Virus record (IMG/VR): IMGVR_UViG_3300046517_002960
Span: 64,001-128,000 of that record
Source: a virus
Direction: 5' to 3' (one strand)
Length of the DNA stretch: 64,000 nt
The notes under the pieces are model-generated. The model was not told where the DNA came from. It did not search any database and saw only the letters and a program-made list of their open reading frames with translations. The position numbers were made by a program, and so were the translations under genes. Below, one piece after another: positions 1 to 10,968 of the stretch. The number at the start of each line of letters is the position of its first letter. The stretch's first letter is position 1.

Positions 1-3000
1 CCCAGCTTGGAGATCAGCACGGAGTCCTCCATCCGCGCCCACATGGAGTCGCGGTCGCCGAGCCCGTGCCAGGCCAGCGGGACCAGGTCGGCGCAGGCCG
101 AATGCGCGTGCAGCTTGCCGGCCCGGGCCACCAGGTCCCGGATCGCCGCCGCCTGCGCATCGTCGGAGGGGTCGAAGACCGCGGCGATGTGCTCCCCGCC
201 CAGCTGGACCAGCCGCAGCTCGTGGTCGGCATGGCTGACCGGGTAGCCGGAGTGCTCCACGTCCACCGACAGGTCCGCCAGGTACGGGGTGACCGCGGCG
301 ACCGCCTCGGCGATCGTGCACGGCAGCACCATCGGCGGCGCGCCCGGGTCGGCCGGGTTCCGGGCGGTGAGCACCGGCAGCGGGTACACCGGGCCTTCCA
401 GCGCCGGGTCCGGCCGCAGCGGCTTCGGCTTCGGGGCCTTCGGCTCCCGGGGCTTGCGTTCTGCTCGCTTCCGTTCGGCTGGCTTCCGCTCTGGCTTGTC
501 CGCTACAGGCTGTGACGGAGCTGCCGGGTCCGCTGCCGGGGGTGCCGCTGCCGGGGATTCCTGAAGGGATTGAGGGTCTGAGGGGTTATTTCTATTTTCC
601 TGCGTGTGCGTGTGTGCGTGTGCATGCGCATTAGGAATAGAAACCAACCCTTCATACCCTTCAGGAGGAGAAAAACTGAAGGGTTGCTGGATGGTTTGAC
701 CTGCAGTTTTTCCGTTCTGAAGGGTTTGGGCTACAGGCGGTGCAAACCCTTCAGTACCCTTCATGAACCCTTCAGCAGGACGGGTGGAACCTCCGCTGAT
801 GCCCATGAACTCGGCCGGAGTCGGCGTGAAGCTGCCTGGCGGGCGCACCCGGAGCGGCCGGTAGTTGCCGTCTGCCCGGTGAACGGCCTCAAACCCCTCA
901 CTGTTCAGGCGCCGTCCCCAGGCCGTCTCGGACGGGATCTGGGAGGGGTGCATATTCTTCCGGCGGCAACTCTCCGTGAACGCCTCGTAGAGCTGGTGGG
1001 ACTTGGTGCCCGGCTCCCAGGGCTCGCACTCGTCCTCTACCCAGAGCATGACCCGGTCCTGGCTGGCCTGGATTTCCAGTGCCGCCCGCCGGCCGGCCTC
1101 GGGGGCGCTTTCGCTGCCCGCGGACCCCGGCTCGGCCAGCCACCCGGCCGCCTCGGCCATCAGCGCGGCGAGCACGCCGGGGGCCTCGCGCCGCCAGGCC
1201 GGGCCGTTCACGTTCCCGATCGCGGCCCGGGCCGCGCGCACCTGCGCCGGGTCGCCGTCGCACGGGATCAGCCGGACCCGCCGCCGGATCGCCGGGTCCA
1301 CCAGGTTCGGCTCGTGCTCCGGGTTGGCGGTCAGGATCAGCGTGTGGGTCGGGGGGAACGTGACCGGGTTCTCGGCCATCCGGTTGCCGGTCAGGTCGGC
1401 GCCCCCGGTGATCTGCTTGAGCCGTTCGGTGGCCATCGTGCCGGCCCGGGGGGCCTCATCGATGAAGGACAGCCGGCGGCCTTTCAGCGCGTACACGATG
1501 GAGGCGTGCGACCGGTCGGCCGGGGACAGCAGCCGCGCGTCGGCGGTGTGCGCGTACGTGCCGAGCACGCTCATCATCAGGTCGATGACGGACGTCTTGC
1601 CCACGTCGGTCTCGCCCAGCATGATCGGCAGCGCCTTGTCGGAGTACCCGGTAACCGCGATGGCCAGCACCCGCAGCGCCCAGGCCCGCAGCTCCGCGTC
1701 CGGCCAGACGGCTGCCAGGAACGCGTCCCATAGCGGCGTCTTGCGCTCGCTGTCGGGGGTGACCGCCGCGCTGTGCAGATGCGGCACGCCCCAGTCAATG
1801 CGCCGGGTAGGTTCCGGGCTGCCCGCGAACTCCCGCAGGTCCCACGGCACCCCCCCGGCCCACAGGATCTCCCGGTCGGCATCCAGCCCGGCCAGGTCGA
1901 TCGCCGAGGGATGGAAGCCGACGCCGGTCTGCGCGTTCATCTTCCCGGCGATCCCGGCCGAGGACGCGTTGGTGCAGAACCTGGCCCGCCGTTTGGCCTG
2001 GGCCTTTTCCGGGGTGCCGTCATCGGCGGCCGGGTCGCCGGGCAGCATCAGCCAGCTGACCAGGTCGACGGCCCAGGCGGCGGCGTTGCCCCGGCGCGGC
2101 ACCCAGGCCTCCGGCCCGCGCACCAGCCAGGTGCCGGCGTCGGGGGCGTACCGCAGCGCCGGGTGCACCCGGGTCAGCACGTCCCGGGCCAGGGTGGCGT
2201 CCAGTTCCGCGGCCGTCTCGAACGGGGCGGTGCCGATTGCCTGGTACGGCGTCCAGAGCCGGGCGGGCTCGATCGGCTCGGGCTCCGGCTCGCCCTCGGG
2301 CACGCCCGGGGCCGGGGCCTGGTACTCCTGGCGGGCCGCCGCGTTCACGGTCAGCACGCACGGGTCCCACCCGGCCGGGCGCGGCCCGTGCTCGGTGACC
2401 GCGGACCGGGCGGCGCCCAGCACCATCTCGGCGAACTCGGCCTGGCGGCCCTCCCCGGCGGTCAGGTCGTTCCACAGCTCGTCCAGCGCCCGGATCGCGG
2501 TCAGGTAGCCGGGGTGGCCCTTGGCGCCCAGCATCACCGCGGCCAGGGTGTACTTCAGCATCGCGTCATGCCGCGTGCCCGGCTCGGCCCGGGTCAGGGC
2601 GCGCCGCGCCTCGTCCATCACCGCGGCCATGTCCACGCACCACGGCGCCCCGGCTGCCTCGCTGCCCTCGAGTTCGAGCAGCAGCTGCTGCCCGGCCTCC
2701 GGGGGCGCGTTCGCCCCGGCCGGCTTCGACGCCCCGGCCGCCAGAGCGGTCACCCAGGCGGGCGGCAGCTGCGGCAGCTGGTCCGGCCGCGGGATCTCGC
2801 CCGGGTCCGCCGCCGAGCCGTCCGGCCGGTACCAGGTGTAGGTGCCGTCCACCGCCCCGTCGTCGTCGTGGTGCGGGCTCGGCCAGACCACGGCGTACCG
2901 GTGGTGCAGCTGGATGATCTCGATGTCCGGGTCGATGGTGCCCGCGTACCGCTGCGCCGGCGCCCGGAAGAACCAGATCCGCGACGGCTGGCCCGGCCCC

Positions 3001-3347
3001 CGCGCGGTGGAGGACCAGGTCGGCGGCAGCTCGCCCCACTCGGCTGCCCGGGCGGCCAGGGTCTGCGCCCCGTGCTTCTGCTTGCCGTGCTTGACGTACT
3101 GGTCGACGTCGATGCCGATGACGCCGGCCGGCAGCCGCAGCGCGACCGAGCTGCCGGGCCTGCTGCCGATCCAGCCGATCACCGTGCCCGCGTCGGTCCA
3201 GGCCCCGTCCGCCCCGGTGTAGCCCTCCGGCGGCGGGTACTTGCCCTGCGCGGGCACCGGGATGACGCCCGGCCACCCTTTCAGGAGGTAGTCCCCGGCG
3301 TGCTCCGCGTACGGGCGCGCCGAGATGCCGGGCGCCGCCGCCGTCAC
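1..3347 (-). CDS. Fused replication protein: bifunctional primase-polymerase (Prim-Pol/AEP) + D5-like SF3 helicase + linker + PolA-type 3'-5' exonuclease domain; runs off the left edge (>1115 aa)
   Basis: GTG at 3347. Manual translation gives GVIGIDVD...HHRYAVVWPSPH (Prim-Pol), Walker A GETDVGKT (about 1590-1615), Walker B LSFIDE, then DLSVDVEHSGYP...LRLVQLGG...LHAHSA..DL...EDSVLISKL (exonuclease motifs). No stop in the stretches I translated (1-900, 1561-1680). The ORF track lists no ORF in this frame, consistent with no stop before the edge. Confidence 0.88.
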   Translation of the reverse strand, partial: MTAAAPGISARPYAEHAGDYLLKGWPGVIPVPAQGKYPPPEGYTGADGAWTDAGTVIGWIGSRPGSSVALRLPAGVIGIDVDQYVKHGKQKHGAQTLAARAAEWGELPPTWSSTARGPGQPSRIWFFRAPAQRYAGTIDPDIEIIQLHHRYAVVWPSPHHDDDGAVDGTYTWYRPDGSAADPGEIPRPDQLPQLPPAWVTALAAGASKPAGANAPPEAGQQLLLELEGSEAAGAPWCVDMAAVMDEARRALTRAEPGTRHDAMLKYTLAAVMLGAKGHPGYLTAIRALDELWNDLTAGEGRQAEFAEMVLGAARSAVTEHGPRPAGWDPCVLTVNAAARQEYQAPAPGVPEGEPEPEPIEPARLWTPYQAIGTAPFETAAELDATLARDVLTRVHPALRYAPDAGTWLVRGPEAWVPRRGNAAAWAVDLVSWLMLPGDPAADDGTPEKAQAKRRARFCTNASSAGIAGKMNAQTGVGFHPSAIDLAGLDADREILWAGGVPWDLREFAGSPEPTRRIDWGVPHLHSAAVTPDSERKTPLWDAFLAAVWPDAELRAWALRVLAIAVTGYSDKALPIMLGETDVGKTSVIDLMMSVLGTYAHTADARLLSPADRSHASIVYALKGRRLSFIDEAPRAGTMATERLKQITGGADLTGNRMAENPVTFPPTHTLILTANPEHEPNLVDPAIRRRVRLIPCDGDPAQVRAARAAIGNVNGPAWRREAPGVLAALMAEAAGWLAEPGSAGSESAPEAGRRAALEIQASQDRVMLWVEDECEPWEPGTKSHQLYEAFTESCRRKNMHPSQIPSETAWGRRLNSEGFEAVHRADGNYRPLRVRPPGSFTPTPAEFMGISGGSTRPAEGFMKGTEGFAPPVAQTLQNGKTAGQTIQQPFSFSPPEGYEGLVSIPNAHAHAHTHTQENRNNPSDPQSLQESPAAAPPAADPAAPSQPVADKPERKPAERKRAERKPREPKAPKPKPLRPDPALEGPVYPLPVLTARNPADPGAPPMVLPCTIAEAVAAVTPYLADLSVDVEHSGYPVSHADHELRLVQLGGEHIAAVFDPSDDAQAAAIRDLVARAGKLHAHSACADLVPLAWHGLGDRDSMWARMEDSVLISKL
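562..774. repeat. Iteron-like cluster (8 exact TGAAGGG/CCCTTCA heptamers) with AT-rich tract; putative replication origin inside the replicase gene
   Basis: Copies at 562, 648, 657, 677, 718, 747, 757 and 768 in both orientations; AT-rich GGTTATTTCTATTTTCC at about 584-600; lies in the low-complexity linker of the CDS. Confidence 0.65.
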
Positions 3348-3425
3348 GGCCGCCTGCCCTGGGTTTCGCGATGCATCGCGTGGCGGGGCAGCGTAAACGG
3401 CCCGCTGGCGGGTATGCTCTGGCTA

Positions 3426-3477
3426 AGCATGGTTCTCCTCACGGGGATCGTGCGGAGCATGGTTCTCCTCACGGGGA
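3426..3477. repeat. 22-bp direct repeat (period 30) duplicating an RBS+ATG upstream of the replicase
   Basis: AGCATGGTTCTCCTCACGGGGA at 3426-3447 and 3456-3477; reads GAGGAGAACC-ATG on the minus strand. Confidence 0.85.
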
Positions 3478-7573: not shown

Positions 7574-10500
7574 TCAGTCCAGCCCCCCGAGCAGCATCCG
7601 GACATATCTGGGGTCCTTGTACAGCTGGCCCGCCTGGCCCGCCTTGTCTTTCAGCACCTCGCGACGGTACTGGTCGACCGTGTCCAGCGTGACGAAGTCC
7701 ACGATCTCCACGTGGTCCCACTTCTCGGCGCCGATCCGGTGCACCCGGTCCTCGGGCTGGATGGCCAGGTCCAGCTGGTAGGACCGCTGCAGCATGGCCG
7801 CGCTGTTGCTCGCGGTCAGGGTGATGCCGAGCCCGCCGGCGCCGAGCGTGCAGATGATAACGTCCAGCTTGCCCGCCTGGAAGTCCTCGACTGCGGCCTG
7901 CCGGGTCTTCTTGGTGACCCGCACGCCGGGCTCGCCGTACTCGCCGGAATTGCCCTCGCCGACGACGTAGCCGGTGCGCAGCCCGGCTTTGGCGCAGTAC
8001 TGCCCGGTGATCATGGCCAGCTGCCGGGACTCGGCGAACACCGCGGTGGGCTGGTCCGGCCGCTCGGCCAGCAGGTCCAGCAGCGCCTCGGCCTTCCAGC
8101 ACGGCGGCTTGAGGGTGACTGTGTAGTGCGGCTTGAGCAGCCCGGTGGCCTCGTCCAGCCGGTAGTCGACGGCGACGTCGGCGGCGCTCGACGCGAGCTG
8201 GGACAGCCGGGTCAGCTTCTCGATCGTGTACATGACCGGGAGCTCGCCGCCGTCCGGGAGCTCGGCCAGCATCTGATCGCGCATGGTGTCGTACGCGTGC
8301 CGCCAGGCCGGGGGCATCTCCGGGCGGCGCAGCGAGTAGATCTTGTCCGGCAGGAACGCCAGCACGTCGGCCTTGGCGACCCGGCGCAGCTGCCCGGCCA
8401 GCGCGGCGAAGAACTCGGCTTCCATCTCCGGGCGCAGGCCCAGGATCAGCTCGTCGTAGTCCCCGTTGCCGCGCCGGGTGGCCAGGTACCGCCGTTTCAG
8501 GTCTTCCTTGGACGGCCAGTCCAGCGGCGCCATGGTGAACAGCGGCTGGTAGATGTCGCCGAAGTCGTGGGTGACCAGCGTGCCCGACGCCCAGACCAGG
8601 GTCGCCGCGTAGTGCGCGACCCGCCACAGCGCTTTAGACTGCTTGGCCTTCGGGTTGCGGCCCAGGTGAGATTCGTCGGCGATGACGCAGGCGGCCCGGA
8701 TCTTCACCAGCAGGCCGCGCATGTCCGGGGCGTCCCGGCGCATCGTGGCGTAGGTGGTGATCAGGATGTACCGGCCGTGCTTCCAGCTGGCGATCCTGGC
8801 CCGCTTCGCCCCGCGGTGCAGGACCGGCTCCGGCCAGTGCGGCATCAGCTCGCGGATATGGTCCTGCCAGACGCGGGCTACCTCCCACGACGGCACGACG
8901 ATGACCATCGGGAAGACGTCGGTGCCGGCCAGGCGGCGGGCCTCGATGCCGAGCAGCGTCGACGCGGTGTTATGCGTCACCGCGAACCGGTCTGTAACGT
9001 ACAGGCGGGACGGGTGATCAATAGCGATGCACTGCATCGGCTTCCGGCCGGCGAACTCTGCTGAGACGAGTGACCGGGCCGGCTGGCGCGTGCTGTGCCT
9101 GTTTTTCCACAAGCAGGTCTTCCGGGACAGCCGGAACGGGGACAGCGGCTGTGGCAGGTTCACCGTGACCGTGTACCGCTCCCGGCCCAGCTGGAATCTT
9201 GCCGCCAGGTGCCCGGTGCCGCCCAGAGATTCGGCCAGCCACCGCACGTCCTCGGCCAGCTGCCGGCTGGATGAGCCGAACTGCGCGGTTCCGTCACGGC
9301 TCAGAACCCATCCATCGGTATCCATCAGTCCCTGCAGGACAGCAAGGCGGCAGCTGGCCGGGCTCATCTTGTAGGCGTCCGGGACGAACTTCGTCAGGCT
9401 TGAGCATCCACGCAGGCCCAGATCGGCCAGCGGGCCGGCAACCGGATGACACCTTTTTCCTGCTATCGGGAACCGGCTCCGGGTATCGTCCTTAACAGCT
9501 GCCTGGTAACAGCGCCCGCACAACCCTCGTGCGATGGCGATCCGCCCGCATGCGCAGATCCGGCCGTTCGCGGAACCGAGCGTGCTAACCAGCCGGTAGT
9601 CGTACTTTTTGCCCGGCTCTTTCTTCACGATGATACCGGGAGGAACTAGAGACTCGATGGACGCGACAATCTCGGCGTCAGCCGTTGACACCCGGGTTGA
9701 CCTGGTCGTGAACCCGCCGTCACCCAGCAGCAGGCCGAGCAGGTACGGGTCCAGCTCGCGTTTCGCGCCGCACTCAAGATCGGGGGCCGTGATCATCGGG
9801 ACGTACCACTTCGCACGGTCACTGTCACCGTTCGGAGCCCGGAGCCCGGCATCAATGAGATCCCGTAGCGTCCGGGTCTGCCAGTAATAGGGAAGCCGCT
9901 CACCGGTTGTCTTCGAGAGCATGCGGCGGTGCCTGCTTACCCGCCAGAGATGCTGGTCATTGCATTCAGCTGATGAGCCGTCGCTGAAGATGACTTCGTA
10001 GCAGTCTTGTTCTCCCTGCGGGAACACGCCGGTAACCCGGGATGGCGTGCCGTCTCCGGCGATCACCAGGTCGCCCGTGCGAATCTCGCCCATAGCCCGG
10101 AATCCGCTCGGGGTCAGCACTTGTGCGTCCAGTGGCTGTGCTTTCCCGGTGCCCGGCTCATCGCCCAGGAGGTACTTCCCGGCTGACGCGATCGCGGCGG
10201 CGCCGTCCAGCTGGTGCGGGTAGGGCGTGAACGACTCCGGCCAGCACCGCGGGATGGCGGGCGGTGGCGAGGTGCGGCGGATCGTCTCGGCGATGATCCA
10301 CTCGGTCAGCTTCGGCCAGGGCTTCCAGACCGTATGGCCGTCGTGGTTGTAGATGAACCCGAGCTGGACGATGGTGGCCCAGCTCAGCGGGTAGTACCGG
10401 GCGCCGGTCGGCTGGCCGTTCTCGTCCAGTGCCGATTCCCCGGCCGCCGTCAGCAGGTGCAGCCGCTCGGCGATGTTCTTCTTGTCATGCGCGGAGCCGG

Positions 10501-10675
10501 TGGCCCACAGCACCATGTGCCGGCCGTCCGCCGTCATCTCGCCGCGCAGGGCGCCATCGCCATAATAACCGTTCCGCGGCGGCTCGCGGTACGCCGGGAG
10601 CCGGTACGGGCCGGGCTGCTCCGGCGCCAGGAACATGGCCACGGCGTCGTGTGCCGCTGCTTCGGCGAGATTCAT
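7574..10675 (-). CDS. SNF2-family (SF2) helicase containing an intein
   Basis: PYPHQLDG, GDEPGTGK|T split by the intein, IADESH, SGTLV, GLGITLT...QPEDRVHRIG motifs; ATG at 10675. Confidence 0.92.
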   Translation of the reverse strand: MNLAEAAAHDAVAMFLAPEQPGPYRLPAYREPPRNGYYGDGALRGEMTADGRHMVLWATGSAHDKKNIAERLHLLTAAGESALDENGQPTGARYYPLSWATIVQLGFIYNHDGHTVWKPWPKLTEWIIAETIRRTSPPPAIPRCWPESFTPYPHQLDGAAAIASAGKYLLGDEPGTGKAQPLDAQVLTPSGFRAMGEIRTGDLVIAGDGTPSRVTGVFPQGEQDCYEVIFSDGSSAECNDQHLWRVSRHRRMLSKTTGERLPYYWQTRTLRDLIDAGLRAPNGDSDRAKWYVPMITAPDLECGAKRELDPYLLGLLLGDGGFTTRSTRVSTADAEIVASIESLVPPGIIVKKEPGKKYDYRLVSTLGSANGRICACGRIAIARGLCGRCYQAAVKDDTRSRFPIAGKRCHPVAGPLADLGLRGCSSLTKFVPDAYKMSPASCRLAVLQGLMDTDGWVLSRDGTAQFGSSSRQLAEDVRWLAESLGGTGHLAARFQLGRERYTVTVNLPQPLSPFRLSRKTCLWKNRHSTRQPARSLVSAEFAGRKPMQCIAIDHPSRLYVTDRFAVTHNTASTLLGIEARRLAGTDVFPMVIVVPSWEVARVWQDHIRELMPHWPEPVLHRGAKRARIASWKHGRYILITTYATMRRDAPDMRGLLVKIRAACVIADESHLGRNPKAKQSKALWRVAHYAATLVWASGTLVTHDFGDIYQPLFTMAPLDWPSKEDLKRRYLATRRGNGDYDELILGLRPEMEAEFFAALAGQLRRVAKADVLAFLPDKIYSLRRPEMPPAWRHAYDTMRDQMLAELPDGGELPVMYTIEKLTRLSQLASSAADVAVDYRLDEATGLLKPHYTVTLKPPCWKAEALLDLLAERPDQPTAVFAESRQLAMITGQYCAKAGLRTGYVVGEGNSGEYGEPGVRVTKKTRQAAVEDFQAGKLDVIICTLGAGGLGITLTASNSAAMLQRSYQLDLAIQPEDRVHRIGAEKWDHVEIVDFVTLDTVDQYRREVLKDKAGQAGQLYKDPRYVRMLLGGLD
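8969..10141 (-). mobile_element. Class 3 intein (391 aa) with LAGLIDADG homing endonuclease, inserted in helicase Walker A
   Basis: Starts AQPLD (Ala1), ends VTHN followed by Thr+1; W (HLW), C (MQCIAI) and T (VTHN) give the WCT class-3 signature; LLGLLLGDG and LQGLMDTDG motifs. Confidence 0.92.
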
Positions 10676-10695
10676 GCCGGGGTACCTTCTGCCGT

Positions 10696-10968
10696 CTACT
10701 GCGCCTGGGGGTCCGTGCCGGGCGCGAACGCGGTGCCGCGCAGGTGCCAGCGCTCGCACATCGGGGTGCCGGTCAGCGGCTTGCCGTCCAGCCCGGACGG
10801 GGCCGTGGCGGCAGTTGCCCGGCCGGCCTGCCGGATCACGCCTCCGCGGGGGACCGCGCCGTCCGCGTGGCAGGGGCGGGCGCAGCCGCAGTGGCCCTCG
10901 CGGGCCAGGGTGTCCTCGGCGTTGGCGCGGATCCCGCAGTGAGCACCACATTCGAGGGTCAGGGCCAC
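10696..10968 (-). CDS. Small Cys/His-rich hypothetical protein
   Basis: 90 aa, CGAHC..HCGC..CH..CERWH; fills the gap between the SSB-like and helicase genes. Confidence 0.55.
   Translation of the reverse strand: MALTLECGAHCGIRANAEDTLAREGHCGCARPCHADGAVPRGGVIRQAGRATAATAPSGLDGKPLTGTPMCERWHLRGTAFAPGTDPQAQ

What the first reader, a model, noticed from the sequence alone, without database searches (positions are those of the whole stretch)
1..3347. Single polypeptide fusing Prim-Pol, SF3 helicase and a PolA-type exonuclease
Seen: one apparently uninterrupted frame carries AEP Prim-Pol motifs, a D5-like helicase (GETDVGKT, FIDE), an Ala/Pro/Lys-rich linker and then a PolA-type 3'-5' exonuclease (DVEHSG...LRLVQLG...HAHSA..DL) at the window edge. 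Known: Prim-Pol+SF3 fusions are common, and helicase-PolA fusions exist (TVpol). Inference: the missing C-terminus is a family A polymerase, which would make this an all-in-one replicase. The ORF track misses it because it has no stop in the window.
Basis: partly seen in the sequence, partly recalled or inferred. Interest (0 to 1): 0.72.

Follow-up and report, generated by a model that had tools for sequence, protein, structure and literature searches.

The report
One-gene phage replicase with origin
A 190-kb soil actinobacterial phage makes its primase, helicase, proofreading nuclease and DNA polymerase as one 1888-residue protein whose polymerase part holds a self-splicing intein, and the DNA coding its flexible linker looks like the phage's own replication origin; the layout is a variant of fusions already described.

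Summary
The open frame at window 3-3347 (minus strand) is the first 1115 codons of a 1888-codon gene that runs 2.3 kb past the left edge. Its order is Prim-Pol primase, D5/P4-type SF3 helicase, Pox_D5-like DNA-binding domain, about 170 residues of linker, DEDDy 3'-5' exonuclease, family A polymerase.

- **Intein:** a 259-residue class-1 intein sits exactly in the polymerase motif NY|(C)IQGT. Relatives carry inteins at four other polymerase sites.
- **Family:** it is large. There are at least 265 proteins, from prophages of Nocardioides, Micromonospora, Kribbella and others, and about 45 IMG/VR contigs. No cultured phage or plasmid record holds the fused form.
- **Origin-like DNA:** the linker-coding DNA carries seven ACCCTTCA octamers, the only copies in 190 kb, beside the genome's most AT-rich 150 nt. 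In 46 of 51 related loci the linker array outnumbers any other 600-nt window, with a lineage-specific octamer. Two octamer bases co-vary with two residues of the domain just upstream.

Helicase-primase-polymerase fusions were described in 2016 in other domain combinations. This scan has already met the same architecture, with an origin-like linker, on other DNA. I rate it a new variant of a known kind.

The parts
3..3347 (-). First 1115 codons of the 1888-codon replicase gene. The whole gene is L002:7681-13347(-), which is genome 61681-67347. The remaining 773 codons lie left of the window: the rest of the exonuclease, the polymerase N-part (residues 1211-1547), the intein (residues 1548-1806, L002:7930-8706) and the polymerase C-part (residues 1807-1888).
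2358..3347 (-). Prim-Pol (archaeo-eukaryotic primase) domain, residues 1-330. Motif I is D80/D82 (3102-3110). Motif II is H148/H149 (about 2901-2906).
   Evidence: The AF2 model has pLDDT 93.5. The Foldseek top hits are pRN1 ORF904, NrS-1, RepB' and CAPP Prim-Pols. 40 of 41 homologous N-termini match PF09250. phrog_1156 'DNA primase' matches at E 3e-102.
1128..2357 (-). D5_N-like region and SF3 (D5/P4-alpha type) helicase, residues 331-740. Walker A GETDVGKT is at 1593-1616 and Walker B FIDE at 1455-1466. Motif C N675 and arginines 688/690/692 are also present.
   Evidence: PF19263 is above its cut-off and D5_N matches weakly. TIGR01613 scores E 2e-29, just below its cut-off. The named residues are invariant in the family.
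828..1127 (-). Pox_D5-like C-terminal domain of the helicase, residues 741-840, proposed to bind the origin. His823 (879-881) and Asn828 (864-866) co-vary with the octamer sequence.
   Evidence: In the protein-atlas search all 30 named hits are PF03288 clusters, top score 0.96. Covariation is shown.
318..827 (-). Low-complexity linker, residues 841-1010. It is Ala/Pro/Lys-rich and contains a His-Ala/His-Thr run.
   Evidence: No family matches it. Its columns are variable in the family alignment. GC3 falls from 0.91 to 0.35-0.45 for residues 861-920.
647..774 (.). Iteron-like array of seven exact ACCCTTCA/TGAAGGGT octamers, five in one orientation and two in the other, with neighbours 9-11 nt apart.
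   Evidence: There are 7 copies against 0.76 expected in the window, and 0 of 100 shuffles reach 7. These are the only copies in the 190-kb record. The octamers fall in different reading frames and on both strands. The same layout, with lineage-specific octamers, is present in 46 of 51 related loci.
581..646 (.). AT-rich stretch with an alternating purine-pyrimidine (CA/CG) run next to the octamers. It is a candidate DNA-unwinding element.
   Evidence: GC is 0.45-0.50 against 0.71 for the genome. The lowest-GC 150-nt window of the whole record starts at genome 64576, which is window 576.
3..317 (-). First part of the DEDDy 3'-5' exonuclease, residues 1011-1115. Exo I is D1029/E1031 (255-263) and Exo II is D1087 (87-89). 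Exo III (Y1186, D1190) lies left of the window.
   Evidence: These residues are invariant in the family. 19 of 25 family members match PF01612.

Best explanation
This gene encodes the phage's own replicase as a single chain, and it probably carries the phage's replication origin inside itself.

**Shown**
- The domain order is Prim-Pol primase, SF3 helicase, Pox_D5-like domain, linker, DEDDy exonuclease, family A polymerase.
- All catalytic motifs are intact.
- A canonical class-1 intein (Cys1 ... His-Asn | Cys+1) is inserted exactly in the conserved polymerase motif that precedes motif C.

**Inferred**
- The intein must splice out before the polymerase can work.
- The helicase part forms a hexamer, as D5 and P4 alpha do, so each ring would carry tethered primases and proofreading polymerases.
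- The domain just before the linker binds the octamer array that lies in the linker-coding DNA of its own gene.
- The neighbouring AT-rich stretch melts, the ring loads, Prim-Pol primes and the PolA part extends.
For: **Gene and domains.** The full frame is. PolA is supported, and its motifs. Prim-Pol is supported by the fold and by family matches. The helicase is supported, and the exonuclease.

**Intein.**
- The 259-residue insert is exact when compared with an 85%-identical homologue that lacks it.
- It matches the intein part of NF038136 at E 4.5e-11.
- All top fold matches are inteins or LAGLIDADG enzymes.

**Sole replicase.** No other polymerase, DnaB or Toprim_2 domain was found in the record.

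**Phage context.**
- In relatives the gene sits in a conserved prophage order of exonuclease, phrog_1911, SNF2 helicase, replicase, HNH, large terminase, portal and protease.
- The window itself shows only the upstream half of that order.

**Origin.**
- Seven octamers are unique in 190 kb and lie beside the genome's lowest-GC patch.
- Codon bias collapses there.
- The array layout is conserved in 46 of 51 loci, with lineage-specific octamers.
- Octamer base 5 tracks residue 828 (G with Lys, T with Asn or His). Octamer base 6 tracks residue 823 (T with His, C/G with Arg or Lys).
- On phylogenetically independent pairs, base 5 and residue 828 change together in 6-7 of 8 pairs. Base 6 and residue 823 change together in 5-6 of 6 pairs. 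Neither shows an opposite case (p about 0.016 and 0.03).
- Single-base switches change only the matching residue.
Against: - Nothing was tested at the bench: splicing, oligomeric state, priming, unwinding and origin firing are all inferred.
- Pfam matches Prim-Pol and the exonuclease only in relatives, not in this sequence itself.
- The intein model is of low confidence (pLDDT 57).
- The fold of the proposed origin-binding domain was not obtained.
- Cumulative GC skew does not single out this site.
- The covariation rests on 6-8 independent pairs. The cross-controls lean the same way, because the two octamer bases often change together.
- In a 210-kb relative the polymerase domain is a separate gene, so the covalent link is not obligatory.
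- The phage could still use the host's Pol III for bulk synthesis.
Confidence: 0.8

Rival explanations
1. The protein initiates and primes replication, and its PolA part only fills gaps or processes primers. The host's Pol III would do the bulk of phage DNA synthesis.
For: Family A polymerases often serve in repair or primer removal, which is established knowledge of bacterial Pol I. No clamp or clamp loader was looked for. A relative splits the polymerase off as a separate gene.
Against: It is the only polymerase found in a 190-kb genome. It keeps a complete proofreading site. It is covalently tied to the helicase in hundreds of phages. Kazlauskas et al. 2016 found that dsDNA viruses encoding a polymerase always also encode a replicative helicase, and nearly always a primase.
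Confidence: 0.15
2. The octamer array in the linker-coding DNA is not the origin. It could be another binding site for the same protein (an autoregulatory operator or a partition-type site), or a recombination joint left over from the fusion.
For: Origin firing was not tested. GC skew is uninformative. Polymerase or primase halves have been exchanged at this point in relatives: L055 and L068 have a different PolA, and L051-L076 have a different N-terminus.
Against: Helically phased direct and inverted octamers beside the most AT-rich patch of the genome are the classical origin layout. The P4-alpha/D5-type C-terminal domain is an origin binder (Kazlauskas 2016). In pRN1 the origin lies just downstream of the Prim-Pol-helicase gene (PMC4234260). 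Cultured phages with separate primase and PolA genes lack such an array at the junction.
Confidence: 0.2
3. The long frame is an artefact: either a misassembly, or a chance open frame in GC-rich DNA joining separate genes.
For: GC-rich genomes give long spurious frames (one search lists many). Read coverage could not be checked.
Against: GC3 is 0.91, as in real genes. At least 265 homologues share the same order, including ones from isolate genomes. Domain boundaries and linker layout are conserved.
Confidence: 0.02
4. The intein is decayed and does not splice, so this copy has no working polymerase.
For: The central endonuclease region is short, with one clear LAGLIDADG motif. Block B reads SxxH rather than TxxH. 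The model confidence is low.
Against: Cys1, His-Asn and Cys+1 are all intact. 130 of the 259 positions are invariant across four inteins at 54-60% identity. The frame is open with normal codon bias. It interrupts the only polymerase in the genome.
Confidence: 0.07

Closest known systems
Pas55 of Actinoplanes phage phiAsp2 (Kazlauskas, Krupovic and Venclovas 2016, PMC4889955)
   Same: One polypeptide joins a primase, an SF3 helicase and a family A polymerase in an actinobacterial phage. The paper cites it as the ultimate case of coupling between the three functions.
   Different: Its primase is of the DnaG type, whereas this one is an AEP Prim-Pol. No cultured phage gave a match spanning the helicase-exonuclease junction of this protein. 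That passage reports neither an intein nor an origin inside the gene.
gp55 of Lactococcus phage 1706 and related Rhodococcus phage proteins (same paper)
   Same: An AEP primase, an SF3 helicase and a DNA polymerase are in one chain.
   Different: Its polymerase is family B, whereas this one is a family A polymerase with a DEDDy exonuclease.
Phage P4 gp-alpha, poxvirus D5 and pRN1 ORF904
   Same: All are primase plus SF3 helicase fusions. P4 alpha and other D5-family members bind the origin through a C-terminal winged helix. The N-terminal fold here matches ORF904 best. The pRN1 origin lies just downstream of orf904.
   Different: None of them carries a polymerase of its own class A or a proofreading exonuclease. 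Their origins lie outside the coding sequence.
Phage lambda O protein and ori-lambda (recalled from memory, not checked here)
   Same: Origin iterons and an AT-rich region lie inside the initiator's own gene, in the part that codes for the inter-domain linker.
   Different: Lambda O is only an initiator and recruits host helicase, primase and polymerase. Here the same chain supplies all of them.
Apicoplast PREX, and AEP-PolA fusions of the 'Hot Spring 1' PolA cluster (Czernecki et al. 2023, PMC10201439)
   Same: A primase, with or without a helicase, is joined N-terminally to a proofreading family A polymerase.
   Different: PREX uses a TOPRIM primase and a helicase that I recall as DnaB/Twinkle-type (from memory, not checked). 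The Hot Spring fusions are reported from Verrucomicrobia, Planctomycetota and Nitrospirae, with no SF3 helicase mentioned. That paper lists actinophage PolAs (D29-like) as having 'no known partners'.

Membership tests
AEP Prim-Pol (PF09250) | Prim-Pol catalytic fold | tested here: met
   The model of residues 1-330 has pLDDT 93.5. Ranks 1-14 in Foldseek are all Prim-Pol or RepB' primases, with probability 0.90-1.00.
AEP Prim-Pol (PF09250) | Motif I DxD and motif II His | tested here: met
   D80 and D82 are invariant, and H148/H149 are invariant or nearly so, in 25 and 41 sequences. The third acidic ligand was not assigned.
AEP Prim-Pol (PF09250) | Match to the Pfam model | tested here: inconclusive
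   This sequence alone gives no hit at E<=0.01. 40 of 41 aligned homologues (32-56% identical) do, with a best E of 3e-25.
SF3 helicase of the D5 / P4-alpha type | Walker A, Walker B, motif C Asn and arginine finger | tested here: met
   G578-K584-T585, D630-E631, N675 and R688/690/692 are invariant. PF19263 scores 31-33 bits against a cut-off of 27.6.
SF3 helicase of the D5 / P4-alpha type | TIGR01613 'phage/plasmid primase, P4 family' curated cut-off | tested here: not met
   It scores 102.5 bits against a cut-off of 108.7, at E 1.9e-29. This is a near miss over the whole model length.
SF3 helicase of the D5 / P4-alpha type | C-terminal origin-binding winged helix | tested here: inconclusive
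   For residues 735-845 the atlas features point only to PF03288 clusters, with a score of 0.96. Two residues co-vary with the octamers. The fold was not predicted, and a PDB profile search found nothing.
Family A DNA polymerase (PF00476) | Pfam model above cut-off, and motifs A, B and C | tested here: met
   It scores 76.8 bits against a cut-off of 34.3. D1400/E1405, K1468/F1472 and H1837-D1838-E1839 are invariant. It aligns to the Klenow fragment at E 8e-6.
DEDDy 3'-5' exonuclease (PF01612) | Exo I DxE, Exo II D, Exo III YxxxD | tested here: met
   D1029, E1031, D1087, Y1186 and D1190 are invariant. 19 of 25 family members match PF01612. This sequence alone does not.
Class 1 intein | Cys1, block B (S/T)xxH, C-terminal His-Asn, nucleophile at +1, and an exact in-frame insertion in a conserved host motif | tested here: met
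   The junctions read NY|CLAPDT ... LSHN|CIQGT. An 85%-identical homologue reads NYAIQGT with no insert. Block B is SADH. It matches NF038136 at E 4.5e-11. The fold hits are all inteins, although the model is weak.
Class 1 intein | Protein splicing activity | not testable with these tools
   This needs expression of the protein and a gel or mass spectrometry.
Iteron-type replication origin | Clustered repeats in helical phase beside an AT-rich stretch | tested here: met
   Seven octamers in 128 nt are unique in 190 kb. Spacings are 9-11 nt. The adjacent GC of 0.45-0.50 is the genome minimum.
Iteron-type replication origin | Repeats recognised by the element's own initiator | tested here: inconclusive
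   Residue-base covariation on independent pairs gives p about 0.016 and 0.03. No binding assay was done.
Iteron-type replication origin | Replication starts there | not testable with these tools
   This needs a mini-replicon test, marker-frequency analysis or 2D gels.

The most novel reading that the evidence does not exclude
The gene is a self-contained replicon module. One reading frame supplies primase, helicase, origin binder, proofreader and polymerase. The DNA coding its linker is the origin that the protein recognises. Recognition follows a simple two-residue, two-base rule: residue 823 reads octamer base 6 and residue 828 reads base 5. This rule has been reset at least six to eight times in the family. 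The rule would allow origin specificity to be predicted from sequence. It would also explain why primase and polymerase halves are exchanged at exactly this joint.
Probability: 0.5. Interest if true: 0.68.

Novelty: new variant of a known kind. Interest (0 to 1): 0.55.

Why it matters
- **A missing combination.** Triple fusions of helicase, primase and polymerase are the most compact replisomes known. Kazlauskas et al. 2016 listed two domain combinations, and AEP + SF3 + PolA is absent from that list. It turns out to be common in uncultured actinophages and in prophages of cultivable genera such as Nocardioides, Micromonospora, Kribbella and Labedaea. Databases label it only 'DNA polymerase' or 'P4 family primase'.
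- **A tractable minimal system.** If the linker DNA is the origin, one gene would be a whole replicon for high-GC Gram-positive bacteria, useful as a minimal replication system and possibly as a vector core.
- **A testable recognition rule.** The residue-base covariation gives a direct hypothesis for how initiator and origin change specificity together.
- **Inteins in an unlisted host gene.** Five intein sites in one polymerase domain add a host protein that the 2025 survey of actinobacteriophage inteins does not list.

Tried and rejected
- **PDB sequence and profile searches.** Searches with the Prim-Pol domain, the intein and the Pox_D5-like domain found nothing useful.
- Genomic context was taken from the search for related loci instead.
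- **GC skew.** Cumulative GC skew over the 190-kb record does not mark the candidate origin. The local minimum near genome 74 kb coincides with a switch of gene strand.
- **TTA-led coding gaps.** Earlier notes report TTA-led coding gaps at homing sites in this phage. This gene has no in-frame TTA and no gap at any of the five intein sites.
- **Absorbed gene-end origin.** I tested whether the octamer array is a gene-end origin kept by phages with separate primase and PolA genes. Streptomyces phage Rowa and Microbacterium phage Percival show no array at that junction, with at most 3 copies of any octamer. They serve only as negative controls.
- **Cultured fused forms.** I looked for a fused form in cultured phages and in plasmids and found none.
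- **Literature.** Searches found no description of this exact combination or of its internal origin. The library does not hold most subscription journals.
Full report
**Where it lies**

The window is bases 64001-128000 of a 190,216-bp IMG/VR record classed as a provirus and estimated 90% complete. The record has about 71% G+C. The minus-strand frame 3..3347 is open from a GTG and runs off the left edge. I fetched the neighbouring DNA as L002 (genome 54001-70000). There the frame continues to a stop: L002:7681-13347(-), 1888 residues. Codon-position GC is 0.72/0.53/0.91, as in the neighbouring real genes. The start GTG overlaps the stop of a short upstream frame (GTGA) and follows a purine-rich stretch.

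**Domains**

- **Whole protein:** Pfam finds DNA_pol_A (76.8 bits, cut-off 34.3) and DUF5906. PHROGs finds 'DNA primase' over residues 9-824 (E 3e-102) and 'DNA polymerase' over 1065-1548.
- **Helicase:** scanned in pieces, it also gives TIGR01613 (P4-family primase C-terminal region) at E 2e-29, just under its cut-off, and a weak D5_N match.
- **Polymerase:** it aligns to the Klenow fragment.
- **Prim-Pol:** the N-terminal 330 residues match no Pfam model on their own. 40 of 41 aligned homologues match PF09250 Prim-Pol. An AlphaFold2 model built on that alignment has pLDDT 93.5. Its best 14 matches in the PDB are all Prim-Pol-type primases: pRN1 ORF904, NrS-1, RepB' and CAPP.
- **Exonuclease:** this sequence alone fails PF01612, but 19 of 25 relatives match it.

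In a 25-sequence family alignment the following residues are invariant:

| Domain | Invariant residues |
|---|---|
| Prim-Pol | D80, D82, H148, H149 |
| SF3 helicase | G578, K584 (T585 nearly so), D630, E631, N675, R688/690/692 |
| Exonuclease | D1029, E1031, D1087, Y1186, D1190 |
| Polymerase | D1400, E1405, K1468, F1472, H1837, D1838, E1839 |

Every catalytic centre therefore looks intact. Residues 841-1010 match nothing and are variable and of low complexity, so I read them as a flexible linker.

**The intein**

Between '...AAGNY' and 'CIQGTARELL' lie 259 residues that start with Cys and end with His-Asn, followed by Cys.

- The closest homologue (85% identical, 1623 residues) reads NYAIQGT with no insert, so the insertion is exact.
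- The insert matches the intein part of NCBIfam NF038136 over its whole length (E 4.5e-11).
- It holds a LAGLYDGE motif.
- It is 54-60% identical to inserts at the same site in three relatives, with 130 invariant positions including SxxH in block B.
- The structure model is poor (pLDDT 57, four sequences). Even so, all listed matches are inteins, intein-like (BIL) domains or the LAGLIDADG enzyme I-DmoI.
- Atlas features also point to LAGLIDADG and intein clusters, at lead level only.

From my knowledge of Klenow, this site corresponds to the N845/Q849 motif just before motif C. The polymerase cannot be complete until the intein splices out, which is an inference.

Across 121 family members I found four further insertion points in the polymerase domain, each with an intein-like start and end:
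- TGRM|S
- TGRMS|C (these members carry HNH_3, PF13392)
- NGQQF|S
- KRIIF|S (inside motif B)

A 2025 survey of actinobacteriophage inteins lists 19 host proteins. Family A polymerase is not among them.

**How common is the fusion**

- **Protein collection:** a search restricted to 1038-3304 residues returned 265 hits. The best 120 nearly all combine PF09250 and/or PF19263 with PF00476. Most are 1550-1630 residues long. Sources label them 'DNA polymerase', 'P4 family primase' or 'hypothetical'.
- **Species-representative genomes:** 15 places hold a full-length match, in Nocardioides, Kribbella, Micromonospora, Jatrophihabitans, Labedaea, Actinophytocola and one MAG labelled Polyangiales. This came from only two search patterns, so it is a lower bound.
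- **IMG/VR:** about 45 contigs hold it, in two size classes of roughly 37-55 kb and 110-210 kb.
- **Genomic context in relatives:** the neighbourhood is conserved. It runs exonuclease (phrog_1674), phrog_1911, SNF2 helicase (phrog_62), replicase, HNH, large terminase, Mu-type portal, ClpP-like protease. The element is therefore a tailed phage or prophage.
- **Genomic context in the window:** it shows the upstream half of that order. A phrog_1911 protein and a 1125-residue SNF2 helicase lie upstream, and a Dda-like helicase lies downstream.
- **Cultured phages and plasmids:** no record holds the fused form. The primase/helicase and DNA Pol I hits are separate genes at 25-29% identity. Nothing spans the helicase-exonuclease junction.
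- **Other replication genes:** the 190-kb record has no other PolA, Pol III alpha, PolB, DnaB or Toprim_2 domain.

**The linker DNA**

An earlier first-stage note on this genome (e1-5877477) pointed to ACCCTTCA repeats at window 561-774. Follow-ups on other genomes (e1-3425803, e1-5870900) had proposed an origin in the linker of similar replicases. I tested this independently.

- **Octamer count:** it occurs seven times in the window, all within 647-774. The expectation is 0.76, and none of 100 shuffles reaches seven. These are the only copies in the whole 190 kb.
- **Arrangement:** on the coding strand there are three TGAAGGGT copies 10-11 nt apart, two inverted copies, then two more 9 nt apart. 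An AT-rich stretch with an alternating CA/CG run follows.
- **DNA-level constraint:** the copies fall in different reading frames and both orientations (EGF, MKG, TLQ, PFS), so the DNA is conserved rather than a peptide.
- **Composition:** GC drops to 0.45-0.50. The lowest-GC 150-nt window of the genome starts at window 576. GC3 falls from 0.91 to 0.35-0.45 for residues 861-920.

Among 51 distinct related loci, 46 have in the same place more copies of a single octamer than any other 600-nt window of the locus. The median is 9 against 4. The layout is conserved: three copies, one inverted, two close copies, then inverted copies about 80 nt on. Most octamers fit ACCC-NN-CA, with NN being GT, TC, TT, TG, GC or AC according to lineage. 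Two cultured phages with separate genes have no such array.

**Who binds it**

Residues 735-845, just before the linker, resemble only Pox_D5 (PF03288) clusters by atlas features, with a score of 0.96. From memory, this is the C-terminal domain that binds the origin in P4 alpha. Kazlauskas et al. state that P4 alpha and other D5-family members bind the origin through a C-terminal winged helix.

Two positions in this domain follow the octamer:

| Octamer bases 5-6 | Residues 823 / 828 | Count |
|---|---|---|
| GT | His / Lys | 19 of 25 |
| TC | Arg or Lys / Asn | 9 of 11 |
| TT (this phage) | His / Asn | 3 of 3 |
| TG | Lys / His | 2 of 3 |

I built a tree from the helicase region alone and used phylogenetically independent pairs.
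- Base 5 and residue 828 change together in 6-7 of 8 pairs and never oppositely (p about 0.016).
- Base 6 and residue 823 change together in 5-6 of 6 pairs (p about 0.03).
- The cross-controls are weaker (p 0.06 and 0.125).
- The clearest cases are single switches. L037 against L009 goes GT to TT and only Lys becomes Asn. This phage and L031 against L030 and L047 differ as TT against TC, and only His against Lys differs.
- L010 and L036 have almost identical helicases but carry GT/His-Lys against TC/Arg-Asn.

This supports binding of the array by the protein's own domain. That the array is the origin remains an inference from its layout and from P4 alpha. It is also consistent with pRN1, where 166 bp downstream of orf904 are essential for replication (PMC4234260), and with lambda O/ori (from memory).

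**Variants**

- **Split form:** in the 210-kb relative L047 the gene is split between the exonuclease and polymerase domains. The junction reads TGA, then a GGAG 7 nt before an ATG.
- **Frame break:** L018 (Actinophytocola) has a frame break inside the exonuclease.
- **Exchanged polymerase half:** L055 and L068 keep the primase-helicase half (43-54% identity). Their family A polymerase half is too different for BLAST to align.
- **Different N-terminus:** about ten IMG/VR loci keep residues 350-1888 behind a different or very divergent N-terminus.
- **Reading:** the halves have been exchanged around the linker.

**What is known, and verdict**

Kazlauskas, Krupovic and Venclovas (2016) describe two helicase-primase-polymerase fusions. 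One is Lactococcus phage 1706 gp55 (SF3 + AEP + PolB). The other is phiAsp2 Pas55 (SF3 + DnaG primase + PolA). Czernecki et al. (2023) note AEP-PolA fusions in another PolA cluster from other phyla, and they list actinophage PolAs as having no partners. The present combination (AEP + SF3 + DEDDy/PolA) is a third arrangement of the same idea.

This scan has already met the architecture, with an origin-like linker, on other DNA. The fusion itself is therefore not a surprise. Four things are added here: confirmation for this phage, the intein and the four other intein sites, the size and phage context of the family, and the residue-base covariation.

I rate it a new variant of a known kind, with interest 0.55. 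My confidence is about 0.95 for the architecture, 0.85 for a functional intein and 0.6-0.65 for the origin reading.

Noticed in passing
window 7574-10951 (-): A 1125-residue SNF2-type helicase (phrog_62). Residues 213-560 match PHROGs annotated as terminase, DnaC-like loader and primase, which is the pattern expected for an intein insert. An earlier first-stage note (e1-5877483) calls it a class 3 intein.
   Followed up: partly
L047:6540-6600 (IMG/VR 3300037258_000590, 210 kb): The replicase is split into a 1204-residue primase-helicase-exonuclease gene and a separate polymerase gene. The junction reads TGA, a GGAG and then an ATG 7 nt further on, so the exonuclease and polymerase are not covalently linked in this relative.
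   Followed up: partly
L018:13320-13345 (Actinophytocola sp. NPDC049390): There is a +1 frame break inside the exonuclease domain of the prophage replicase, giving a 1209-residue frame and a 489-residue frame. No TTA lies at the break. It could be a decaying prophage, a sequencing error or recoding.
   Followed up: no
L007 and L013 (contig CAZDAO010000001.1, 101,680 bp): Two copies of the replicase locus with identical gene maps lie 46,948 bp apart on one contig. This suggests a tandem prophage or a concatemer assembly of a phage of about 47 kb.
   Followed up: no
L055:5440-7659 and L068:5548-7848; N-termini of L057, L060, L063, L072: Module exchange around the linker. Some relatives keep the primase-helicase half but carry a family A polymerase half that BLAST cannot align. 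Others keep the helicase-to-polymerase part behind an N-terminal 330-520 residues with no Pfam match.
   Followed up: partly
P0018 (2261 aa) and P0026 (2142 aa): These family members each carry two inteins in the polymerase domain. Three members at the TGRMS|C site carry an HNH_3 (PF13392) endonuclease rather than a LAGLIDADG one.
   Followed up: partly
L002:6970-7485 (-), just downstream of the replicase (genome 60970-61485): A 171-residue protein matches phrog_4786 'cysteine dioxygenase' (E 1e-40). This is an unusual neighbour in a replication module.
   Followed up: no
window 3348-3430 (-): A short upstream frame of about 28 codons ends in a TGA that overlaps the replicase GTG start (GTGA). 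This suggests translational coupling.
   Followed up: no
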